From positions 41,550 through 52,060 of the forward strand of contig CAZGKV010000022.1 in the NCBI GenBank assembly GCA_964526305.1: DNA of 10,511 bases, given 5' to 3'. A program made the translations under genes and the position numbers. The notes under the pieces are model-generated. The model saw only the letters and a list, made by a program, of their open reading frames with translations. It ran no database searches and was not told the origin of the DNA. Origin of the DNA: an uncultured Planctomycetales bacterium (GTDB taxonomy: Bacteria > Planctomycetota > MHYJ01 > JACPRB01). This document shows, one piece after another, positions 3,827 to 3,860 of this stretch (position 1 is its first letter; every line of letters starts with the position of its first letter).

Positions 3827-3860
3827 GGTATGATTCCTCCGAAATAGGAGGAATCATGCT
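3827..3860 (+). promoter_or_regulatory. Perfect inverted repeat / RNA hairpin sequestering the Shine-Dalgarno sequence and start codon of the WD40 gene
   Basis: ATGATTCCTCC (3830-3840), a 6-nt loop GAAATA (3841-3846), then GGAGGAATCAT (3847-3857) form an 11-bp perfect stem. It can extend by U.G / G-C / G.U pairs to 3827-3860. The 3' arm contains the SD AGGAGG (3846-3851) and the A and T of the start ATG (3856-3858). A 5-codon mini-ORF (ATG ATT CCT CCG AAA TAG, 3830-3847) occupies the 5' arm. Confidence 0.6.

What the first reader, a model, noticed from the sequence alone, without database searches (positions are those of the whole stretch)
3827..3860. Strong hairpin occluding both the SD and start codon of the WD40 gene, with a 5-codon mini-ORF in its 5' arm
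An 11-bp perfect stem, extendable to ~14 bp with wobble pairs, pairs ATGATTCCTCC with GGAGGAATCAT. The AGGAGG ribosome-binding site and the AUG would be double-stranded in the mRNA. The 5' arm itself encodes AUG-AUU-CCU-CCG-AAA-UAG. Such structures are typical of translational control (RNA thermometers, uORF or ribosome-mediated unmasking, or a trans-acting protein). As DNA it is also a 28-bp palindrome that could bind a dimeric regulator in the DoxX/WD40 divergent promoter region.
Basis: seen in the sequence. Interest (0 to 1): 0.5.

Follow-up and report, generated by a model that had tools for sequence, protein, structure and literature searches.

The report
Hairpin burying a gene's ribosome-binding site
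A very stable 14-base-pair RNA hairpin buries the ribosome-binding site and start codon of a WD40-repeat gene in an uncultured warm-spring planctomycete; this is a well-known way of blocking translation, and nothing here shows how or whether the block is lifted.

Summary
ATGATTCCTCC (3830-3840) pairs perfectly with GGAGGAATCAT (3847-3857) across the loop GAAATA. On the + strand RNA the helix extends to 14 bp (3827-3860, -23.1 kcal/mol, z = -8). It covers GGAGG, the spacer and the AUG of the 300-aa WD40 ORF. Opening this ribosome-binding site costs about 30 kcal/mol. That is the highest of 25 genes on the 29.7 kb recovered from the same contig and sits at about the 99.5th percentile of 370 control starts.

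The best reading is an ordinary RBS-occluding ("anti-SD/anti-AUG") translational block. An RNA thermometer is rejected, because the perfect stem is predicted closed up to 80-90 C and the source is a warm spring. The 5-codon mini-ORF follows from the palindrome: it has no usable SD and is the tail of a 38-codon ORF without coding-like composition.

Two ways to lift the block remain open and untested. One is a transcription start inside the hairpin, since TATGAT lies in the 5' arm. The other is unwinding by ribosomes that finish the upstream ORF.

Conservation could not be tested, because no orthologue or syntenic locus exists in the databases searched. The same arms independently occlude the SD/AUG of an IS transposase in other metagenomes. 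Verdict: a new member of a known kind, of low to moderate interest.

The parts
3827..3840 (+). 5' arm of the hairpin (anti-AUG/anti-SD segment): perfect core ATGATTCCTCC at 3830-3840, plus a 3-nt extension at 3827-3829 that pairs through G.U, G-C and U.G only on the + strand RNA
   Evidence: the minus-strand 34-mer forms only 11 bp (-17.4 against -23.1 kcal/mol)
3841..3846 (+). Hairpin loop GAAAUA. A3846 is the first base of AGGAGG, and UAG 3845-3847 is the stop codon of the upstream ORFs
3847..3860 (+). 3' arm: SD GGAGGA (3847-3852), then AUC (3853-3855), start codon AUG (3856-3858) and CU of codon 2, all base-paired
   Evidence: AUG unpaired probability 0.001 at 37 C
3846..3851 (+). Shine-Dalgarno AGGAGG, 4 nt before the AUG. 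It is one of two full 6-mer SDs among the 25 genes on the 29.7 kb of contig recovered, 16 of which have an SD core of at least 4 nt
3856..4758 (+). WD40-repeat beta-propeller ORF (300 aa), the gene whose initiation region is occluded. It has coding-like GC3 (0.81) and no close orthologue in the databases searched
3830..3847 (+). 5-codon mini-ORF MIPPK*. It is a by-product of the palindrome, its AUG lies in the stem, and it has no SD at a usable spacing
3731..3847 (+). 38-codon ORF in the same frame (MLVIAQLRIFETRRIRNESPARDFRSAANRSQGMIPPK*). It reads through the 5' arm and stops 8 nt before the WD40 AUG. It is a candidate coupling ORF, but GC3 is 0.62 (intergenic-like) and it has no Pfam match
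3722..3725 (+). GGAG 5 nt upstream of AUG 3731, a possible SD of the 38-codon ORF
   Evidence: sequence read directly
3829..3834 (+). TATGAT, a -10-like hexamer (5/6 match to TATAAT) inside the 5' arm, with no -35 partner. If used, transcription would start near 3841-3843 and the mRNA would lack the 5' arm
   Evidence: only 8 hexamers with at least 5/6 match in 21 kb of both strands; the tool's promoter scan finds nothing here; RBS opening cost falls to 8 kcal/mol for a 5' end at 3841
3871..3873 (+). Alternative in-frame AUG (codon 6), 11 nt beyond the base of the helix, with no SD
3078..3512 (-). Divergent DoxX gene. Its start lies 318 nt from the hairpin, so the hairpin is not its terminator

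Best explanation
The hairpin is a cis-acting RNA structure in the leader of the WD40 mRNA. An upstream segment (3827-3840) is the exact complement of the gene's own SD, spacer and AUG (3847-3860). The two form a 14-bp helix that keeps the ribosome-binding site closed, so any transcript that contains the 5' arm is essentially untranslatable at 3856 by free 30S subunits.

It is a hard block, not a temperature dimmer. Expression therefore needs one of the following.

(a) Transcription that starts inside the hairpin. The -10-like TATGAT in the 5' arm would give a roughly 15-nt leader with a free strong SD. The hairpin would then silence only transcripts coming from upstream, which is the logic of IS10 fold-back inhibition.

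(b) Active unwinding by ribosomes that translate the 38-codon upstream ORF and terminate at UAG 3845-3847, followed by re-initiation 8 nt downstream (translational coupling).

(c) A trans-acting opener such as an sRNA, a helicase or a processing nuclease.

What is shown: the helix, its stability, its registration on the SD and AUG, and its outlier status. What is inferred: that it forms in vivo, that it represses translation, and which opening route is used. I rank (a) slightly above (b), with (c) last; none has direct support.
For: The helix is 14 uninterrupted base pairs, -23.1 kcal/mol, z = -8, and is retained in longer contexts.

Its 3' arm is exactly GGAGG, the spacer and AUG of the only plausible start. 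There is no upstream in-frame start, and AGGAGG lies 4 nt before the ATG.

The RBS opening cost is 28.5-30.6 kcal/mol, against -9.8 kcal/mol for SD:anti-SD pairing. This is the highest of 25 genes on the 29.7 kb of contig recovered, the next being 24.9 and 23.5. Only 0.5% of 370 control SD-led starts in other GC-rich loci reach 30.

The helix is longer and 5.7 kcal/mol stronger on the + strand, through G.U pairs that are mismatches in DNA and on the minus strand. This points to RNA-level rather than DNA-level complementarity.

An RNA that starts in the loop is unstructured (z = +1.2), and its RBS then costs only 8 kcal/mol to open, close to the lowest of the 25 genes (lowest 7.9).

Independent precedent: the same 11-nt arms with a different loop sit on the SD/AUG of a DDE transposase, just inside the left end of a complete IS in two unrelated metagenome contigs (L064 and L065). 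SD-sequestering stem-loops are experimentally established for IS200 tnpA (PMC4513863) and ISPpu9 (PMC8450116).

About two thirds of the genes on the recovered contig have an SD core (16 of 25), so SD occlusion should matter in this organism.
Against: There is no transcription start, expression or probing data, so it is unknown whether the 5' arm is in the mRNA.

There is no evolutionary test. The WD40 gene has no orthologue, with the next best hit at 35% identity. Synteny is absent in the nearest genome and near a distant relative of the Kelch gene. All copies of the locus are identical. A perfect, mismatch-free palindrome is also what a recent template-switch mutation would leave.

Strong hairpins are frequent in this GC-rich genome.

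The -10-like hexamer has no -35 and is largely dictated by complementarity to AUCAUG. The upstream ORF has intergenic-like GC3 and no homologues.

There is no upstream co-directional gene whose read-through would need to be blocked.
Confidence: 0.55

Rival explanations
1. The palindrome is a non-adaptive or recently arisen quasi-palindrome. A template-switch or inverted micro-duplication copied the complement of the RBS upstream. The hairpin has no regulatory role and simply lowers or abolishes expression of an orphan gene, or it is bypassed because transcription starts downstream of the 5' arm.
For: The complementarity is perfect, with no mismatch, as expected for a young mutational product. 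The gene is an orphan without orthologues. There is no conservation data, and all copies are identical.
Against: The WD40 ORF keeps gene-like GC3 (0.81) and intact repeats, so it appears to be under selection and presumably needs to be expressed. The helix matches the functional SD-to-AUG window exactly and extends through wobble pairs on the sense strand only. The probability by chance is about 1e-3 (plus my positional estimate).
Confidence: 0.2
2. At the DNA level, the 11-6-11 interrupted palindrome is an operator for a dimeric regulator that controls the WD40 promoter or the divergent DoxX promoter.
For: The dyad symmetry is perfect and lies in a 343-bp divergent intergenic region, overlapping the start of the WD40 gene. 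A cNMP-binding protein is encoded 4 kb downstream.
Against: The arm sequence is fully explained by SD, spacer and AUG together with their complement. The symmetry extends only as RNA wobble pairs on the + strand. No second copy of either arm with at most 1 mismatch in a palindromic arrangement occurs in 29.7 kb. No HTH regulator is recognisable among the called genes with Pfam annotation. The cNMP protein matches CRP only over the nucleotide-binding domain. The site is 318 nt from the DoxX start. The same arms recur on an IS transposase start with a different spacer length, 5 nt instead of 6.
Confidence: 0.12
3. The hairpin is an RNA thermometer: it melts on a temperature upshift and frees the SD.
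For: The SD and AUG are paired in a 5' hairpin, and the organism comes from a warm spring (PMC10811736).
Against: The helix is predicted closed up to 80-90 C (AUG unpaired 0.001 at 37 C and 0.035 at 70 C). It has no mismatch, bulge or U-rich anti-SD, which known thermometers need. The fourU thermometer melts at 41.1 C and its stabilised mutant at 53.5 C (PMC2887971). There is no Rfam match. The regulated gene is neither a heat-shock nor a virulence gene.
Confidence: 0.03
4. The hairpin is a 5'-terminal stem-loop that stabilises the mRNA against 5'-end-dependent decay. Translation starts at the SD-less in-frame AUG 3871, just beyond the helix.
For: About a third of the genes on the recovered contig lack an SD (9 of 25). 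AUG 3871 is in frame, 11 nt past the base of the stem. The propeller domain begins only at residue 16.
Against: A full AGGAGG placed 4 nt before an in-frame AUG is unlikely to be accidental. The arrangement would waste a near-consensus RBS. There is no evidence for a TSS at about 3825.
Confidence: 0.05

Closest known systems
SD-sequestering stem-loops in IS transposase leaders (IS200 tnpA 5'UTR; ISPpu9 tnp 5'UTR)
   Same: A cis helix buries the SD of an otherwise strong RBS and blocks 30S binding (PMC4513863, PMC8450116). An IS recovered here (L064/L065) uses literally the same 11-nt arms over its transposase SD/AUG.
   Different: The window's gene is a cellular WD40-repeat protein, not a transposase. 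No IS ends flank it, and there is no sequence similarity to the IS outside the arms, so this is convergence and not homology. No antisense sRNA or Hfq site is known here. The helix is shorter and perfect.
IS10/IS50 'fold-back inhibition' of read-through transcripts
   Same: The complement of the RBS lies just upstream, so only transcripts that start outside carry both arms and are silent. Here a -10-like TATGAT lies inside the 5' arm, and an RNA that starts in the loop has a free RBS.
   Different: The internal promoter is hypothetical, with no -35 and no TSS data. There is no upstream co-directional transcription unit to defend against.
Translational coupling or leader-ORF unmasking through a hairpin (from my own knowledge: the MS2 coat-replicase type, atpHA, ermC and cat leaders)
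   Same: An upstream ORF (3731-3847) reads through the 5' arm and stops in the loop, 8 nt before the occluded AUG. A terminating ribosome would hold the helix open.
   Different: The upstream ORF has no coding signature or homologues. There is no alternative-pairing (anti-antisense) element as in erm leaders. It has not been shown to be translated.
RNA thermometers (ROSE, fourU)
   Same: The SD is paired in a 5' hairpin.
   Different: The stability is far too high and the stem has no destabilising non-canonical pairs. There is no Rfam hit. The gene class is different.

Membership tests
RBS-occluding cis hairpin (translational repression by SD/AUG sequestration) | The helix includes the SD and/or start codon of the regulated ORF | tested here: met
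   GGAGG 3847-3851 and AUG 3856-3858 are both inside the 3' arm
RBS-occluding cis hairpin (translational repression by SD/AUG sequestration) | The helix is stable enough to out-compete 30S binding | tested here: met
   Opening costs 28.5-30.6 kcal/mol against -9.8 for the SD:anti-SD duplex. It is the top of 25 genes and about the 99.5th percentile of 370 controls.
RBS-occluding cis hairpin (translational repression by SD/AUG sequestration) | Both arms are present in the same transcript (TSS upstream of the 5' arm) | not testable with these tools
   There is no transcript data. No sigma-70-like promoter is called in 3400-4000.
RBS-occluding cis hairpin (translational repression by SD/AUG sequestration) | The pairing is conserved or covaries in relatives | tested here: inconclusive
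   There is no orthologue of the gene and no syntenic locus. The four copies are identical.
RBS-occluding cis hairpin (translational repression by SD/AUG sequestration) | Stem-disrupting mutations raise translation and compensatory mutations restore repression | not testable with these tools
   This needs an experiment.
RNA thermometer (ROSE/fourU type) | The helix melts within the physiological temperature range | tested here: not met
   Predicted closed to 80-90 C. The fourU Tm is 41.1 C (PMC2887971). The habitat is a warm spring.
RNA thermometer (ROSE/fourU type) | Destabilising mismatches, bulges or non-canonical pairs, or a U-rich anti-SD | tested here: not met
   14 uninterrupted pairs with the anti-SD CCUCC
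RNA thermometer (ROSE/fourU type) | A match to a curated family model | tested here: not met
   No Rfam hit at E up to 1 in the whole window
Leader-peptide or uORF-controlled translation (coupling or attenuation) | An upstream ORF with its own usable initiation signals | tested here: inconclusive
   The 5-codon ORF has its AUG in the stem, and AAGG ends 1 nt before it. The 38-codon ORF has GGAG 5 nt before AUG 3731.
Leader-peptide or uORF-controlled translation (coupling or attenuation) | The upstream ORF overlaps the 5' arm, so a translating ribosome opens the helix | tested here: met
   The ORF 3731-3847 covers 3830-3840 and stops at UAG 3845-3847.
Leader-peptide or uORF-controlled translation (coupling or attenuation) | Evidence that the ORF is translated or conserved | tested here: not met
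   GC3 is 0.62, against 0.75-0.86 for genes and an intergenic GC of 0.60. There is no Pfam match and no relatives are available.
Operator palindrome of a dimeric transcription factor | Dyad symmetry in a promoter region | tested here: met
   An 11-6-11 perfect dyad
Operator palindrome of a dimeric transcription factor | A cognate regulator gene nearby and/or further copies of the site | tested here: not met
   No HTH protein is recognised among the called genes with Pfam annotation in 29.7 kb. There is no second palindromic copy. Only about 30 kb of the genome could be searched.
Intrinsic terminator | A GC-rich stem followed by a U tract, downstream of a gene on the same strand | tested here: not met
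   The tail is GCUGGUCGCG. No terminator is called, and there is no upstream + strand gene.

The most novel reading that the evidence does not exclude
A cellular, non-transposon gene carries a self-contained 'fold-back gate'. The complement of its own SD and AUG also houses the -10 element of its promoter (TATGAT 3829-3834). Only transcripts born inside the hairpin are translated, and from an unusually open, strong RBS. Every transcript arriving from upstream is silent unless ribosomes finishing the 38-codon leader ORF (ending ...IPPK-UAG on top of the SD) pry it open. This would be a two-input switch on an orphan WD40 gene in Planctomycetota.
Probability: 0.15. Interest if true: 0.45.

Novelty: new member of a known kind. 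Interest (0 to 1): 0.22.

Why it matters
If the hairpin works as inferred, it is a clean, minimal natural example of complete RBS sequestration on a chromosomal gene of an uncultured planctomycete. Post-transcriptional control is almost unstudied in that phylum. It also shows convergence with an IS transposase leader down to the same 11-nt arms.

It does not open a new question. The principle has been textbook knowledge since MS2, IS10 and IS200, and the regulated gene has no known function. Its practical value is as a candidate for reporter assays and as a caution for expression predictions from MAGs: a perfect SD does not imply high translation.

Tried and rejected
1. Conservation upstream of orthologues. 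The WD40 protein has no relative above 35% identity among 5.8 billion proteins. A full HMMER scan of 1.84 billion representatives listed only giant multi-WD40 proteins and the query itself.

2. Synteny through neighbouring genes.
- The MVP orthologue (89% identity) in the nearest genome, a Planctomycetota MAG (JACPRC01), is flanked by an ECF sigma factor and a kinase, not by DoxX and WD40.
- DoxX relatives reach at most 71-74% identity and sit in other contexts.
- The N-terminal domain of the Kelch protein has only 35-39% relatives, and the nearest has no WD40 gene upstream.
- A 90%-cluster member of MVP could not be located.

3. The four assemblies of the locus are identical and give no variation to use.

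4. Rfam at E up to 1 found nothing.

5. The terminator and sigma-70 promoter scans found nothing at the site.

6. A suspected duplication between the start of the 38-codon ORF and the WD40 start (MLVIAQ against MLVAWMALFVAQ) is not significant: 49 of 500 shuffles score as well. There are no tandem repeats.

7. The arm motif is not enriched in the window or in the 29.7 kb of contig.

8. The thermometer reading was rejected on the temperature scan.

9. The cNMP-binding neighbour as a CRP-like regulator of the palindrome: it matches only the nucleotide-binding domain and has no HTH.

10. L063, a third metagenome hit for the palindrome, is part of a 90-nt AT-rich palindrome and is unrelated.

Full report
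**1. The observation**

Positions 3830-3840 (ATGATTCCTCC) and 3847-3857 (GGAGGAATCAT) are perfectly complementary across the 6-nt loop GAAATA. On the + strand RNA the helix gains three more pairs, U3829.G3858, G3828-C3859 and G3827.U3860. That gives 14 uninterrupted pairs over 3827-3860, with an energy of -23.1 kcal/mol, z = -8.05 against dinucleotide shuffles, and none of 200 shuffles folding as well. The same helix dominates folds of 111 nt and 211 nt of context.

The 3' arm is GGAGG (AGGAGG is 3846-3851, with A3846 in the loop), the spacer, and the AUG at 3856. That AUG opens a 300-aa ORF, which is an unambiguous WD40 beta-propeller (Pfam WD40 E = 1.9e-59). No ATG, GTG or TTG lies upstream in frame before a stop. 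The only alternative start is the SD-less AUG at 3871. The 5' arm reads AUG AUU CCU CCG AAA UAG. DoxX (3078-3512) is divergent on the minus strand.

**2. Is it more than chance?**

A perfect inverted repeat of at least 11 bp with a loop of 3-10 nt occurs in 4.3% of Markov-1 random windows of this size. It is the only one in the window and in the 20.9 kb of the first contig segment fetched (L001). None had an SD and a start codon in the 3' arm, except an IS element that I had found by searching for this very sequence. Requiring the 3' arm to sit exactly on an SD-to-AUG brings the joint chance to about 1e-3 (my estimate).

One caveat came out of the controls. In this roughly 64% GC genome, imperfect GC-rich hairpins of -20 kcal/mol or stronger per 40 nt are common, with 40 on the + strand and 27 on the minus strand in 29.7 kb. 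The energy alone is therefore not remarkable. What stands out is the uninterrupted, relatively AT-rich helix and its registration.

A functional measure confirms this. Making positions -13..+15 single-stranded costs 30.4 kcal/mol for this gene. That is the highest of the 25 genes on the 29.7 kb of contig I could assemble, the next being 24.9 and 23.5. Among 370 heuristically called SD-led ORF starts in the other loci, the mean was 17.1, the standard deviation 4.6, and only 0.5% reached 30.

**3. Source and context**

The window matches a 43.7-kb ENA contig, a 10.8-kb JGI contig and a Logan contig. All are identical over the intergenic region and may come from the same reads. [quoted passage not shown] The nearest genome is a groundwater Planctomycetota MAG, with the MVP-like neighbour at 89% identity and DoxX at 74%.

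The neighbourhood runs as follows: an ABC transporter, a major-vault-protein homologue (minus strand), DoxX (minus strand), a 343-bp spacer, WD40, a 1097-aa Kelch protein, a cNMP-binding protein, a hypothetical protein, and a Ser/Thr kinase. Sixteen of the 25 genes have an SD core of at least 4 nt, and WD40 has one of only two full AGGAGG sites. SD-dependent initiation is thus used by this organism, and occluding an SD should matter.

**4. What it is not**

- RNA thermometer. The predicted probability that the AUG is unpaired is 0.001 at 37 C, 0.004 at 50 C, 0.035 at 70 C and about 0.5 only at 90 C. Characterised thermometers depend on mismatches or non-canonical pairs. The fourU hairpin melts at 41.1 C, and removing its mismatch raises the Tm to 53.5 C (PMC2887971). 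This helix has no defect, no Rfam family matches, and the gene is not a heat-shock gene.
- Terminator. There is no U tract and no upstream co-directional gene.
- Mini-ORF device. AUGAU is simply the complement of AUCAU, and CCUCC (Pro-Pro in that frame) is the complement of GGAGG. The minus strand therefore also begins MIPP. The mini-ORF's AUG is itself in the stem, and the only SD-like AAGG ends 1 nt before it.

**5. What it most likely is**

The parsimonious reading is an anti-SD/anti-AUG hairpin. The 3' arm is explained by translation signals, and the 5' arm has no explanation other than being their complement. The wobble extension exists only on the sense RNA (-23.1 kcal/mol against -17.4 for the minus-strand 34-mer), which favours RNA-level over DNA-level complementarity. 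The net cost of opening exceeds the SD:anti-SD gain (-9.8 kcal/mol) by about 20 kcal/mol. By the established relation between RBS structure and initiation (de Smit and van Duin; Salis and colleagues; both from my own knowledge), free 30S subunits should essentially never load on a transcript that carries both arms.

**6. How could the gene then be expressed?**

Three routes are compatible with the sequence, and none is demonstrated.

(a) A start of transcription inside the hairpin. TATGAT (3829-3834) is the best -10-like hexamer on the + strand of the spacer and one of only eight matches of at least 5/6 in 21 kb of both strands. It lacks a -35, and its sequence is largely imposed by complementarity to AUCAUG. 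An RNA starting at 3841 is unstructured (z = +1.2), and its RBS costs only 8 kcal/mol to open, close to the lowest of all 25 genes (lowest 7.9). That is the logic of IS10 fold-back inhibition (my own knowledge): own-promoter transcripts are translated and outside transcripts are not.

(b) Coupling. The mini-ORF is the tail of a 38-codon ORF (3731-3847) with GGAG 5 nt before its AUG. A ribosome terminating at UAG 3845-3847 would have the whole 3' arm in its mRNA channel and could re-initiate 8 nt downstream. However, this ORF has GC3 of 0.62, against 0.75-0.86 for genes and 0.60 for the spacer, and it has no family match.

(c) A trans-acting opener, as with the antisense sRNA Asr9 that unfolds the ISPpu9 leader (PMC8450116). 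Nothing here points to one.

**7. An independent occurrence**

Scanning metagenome contigs for ATGATTCCTCC-N3-9-GGAGGAATCAT gave three loci. L063 is part of a 90-nt AT-rich palindrome and is unrelated.

L064 and L065 carry the same arms, extended to 12 bp with the 5-nt loop GCAGA, directly on the SD/AUG of a 423-aa HTH plus rve-type DDE transposase. The site lies about 25 nt inside the left end of a complete 1.44-kb IS that has terminal inverted repeats and iterated subterminal repeats. The helix dominates the fold there as well (-30.1 kcal/mol in context). There is no similarity outside the arms, so this is convergence on the same solution.

It places the window's hairpin squarely in a known functional class. 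SD sequestration in transposase leaders is experimentally established for IS200 by toeprinting and stem mutations (PMC4513863) and for ISPpu9 (PMC8450116).

**8. Rivals**

- Neutral, recent quasi-palindrome (template-switch product). This cannot be excluded, because there is no diverged comparator and the helix is mismatch-free. Against it stand the intact, codon-biased ORF and the exact registration.
- DNA operator. This is possible, but there is no second site in 29.7 kb and no recognisable DNA-binding regulator nearby. The cNMP-binding protein matches CRP only over the nucleotide-binding domain. The symmetry is better in RNA than in DNA.
- 5'-terminal stabiliser hairpin with initiation at AUG 3871. 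This would leave a consensus SD-AUG unexplained.

**9. The comparative test failed for lack of material**

The WD40 protein has no orthologue, the next best hit being 35% identity. The nearest genome has neither the gene nor the synteny. DoxX and Kelch relatives are too distant and sit in other contexts. Conservation and covariation remain untested, and this is the main weakness of any functional claim.

**10. Verdict**

The interpretation as translational occlusion is supported thermodynamically and by analogy. The thermometer reading is rejected. The mini-ORF is a by-product of the palindrome, though the longer ORF leaves ribosome-mediated unmasking open. The operator reading is unsupported.

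This is a new instance of a well-known kind of element on a gene of unknown function, with interest of about 0.2. The most novel reading not excluded is a promoter-in-the-arm fold-back gate, possibly combined with leader-ORF unmasking, on a cellular gene (probability about 0.15).

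Noticed in passing
window 689-2851 (minus strand): A 720-aa bacterial homologue of the eukaryotic major vault protein (Pfam MVP_shoulder E = 4.9e-32, plus Vault_3). Relatives at 50-89% identity occur in 59 loci, mostly from Myxococcota, with some from Planctomycetota and Acidobacteriota. It lies next to WD40 and Kelch beta-propeller genes here, but that adjacency is not kept in the nearest genome.
   Followed up: partly
L064 423-1865; L065 (same element, opposite orientation): A complete 1.44-kb insertion sequence. 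It has 32-nt terminal inverted repeats, three subterminal copies on the left and two on the right of GCGCTCAGGACATCGTTCCGAT, and a 423-aa HTH_23 plus rve_3 transposase. The transposase SD/AUG is buried in a 12-bp hairpin with the same arms as the window's hairpin.
   Followed up: partly
window 3709-3740 (+): A second tiny ORF, METSCS* (AUG 3720), is preceded by a perfect GGAGGA at a 5-nt spacing (3709-3714) in the 343-bp DoxX/WD40 spacer. It overlaps the start of the 38-codon ORF. It may be chance in a GC-rich spacer.
   Followed up: no
window 4840-8133 and 8112-9464 (+): The 1097-aa Kelch-repeat protein ends in a hydrophobic segment followed by RRRS (...LLGMEALFLLGFLWIRRRS), which resembles a C-terminal membrane anchor or sorting signal. 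The next gene, a 450-aa cNMP-binding protein with no HTH, overlaps its end by 22 nt, suggesting co-translation.
   Followed up: no
L006 1083-1156 and 3518-3564: Two very long perfect palindromes (35-bp arms with a 4-nt loop, and 22-bp arms with a 3-nt loop) flank the MVP homologue in a Gemmataceae MAG contig. Their nature is unknown; they could be repeat elements or an assembly artefact.
   Followed up: no
window 1-30: The first 30 or so bases of the window differ at 25 positions from the otherwise identical 43.7-kb ENA contig. This is most likely a contig-end artefact of the shorter assembly.
   Followed up: no
merged contig 24370-24410 (about 15.06 kb in window coordinates, beyond the window's end): A 10-bp GC-rich perfect hairpin, GCCACCCGGG-N6-CCCGGGUGGC, sits just past the 3' end of a gene and folds strongly on both strands, like a bidirectional terminator.
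   Followed up: no
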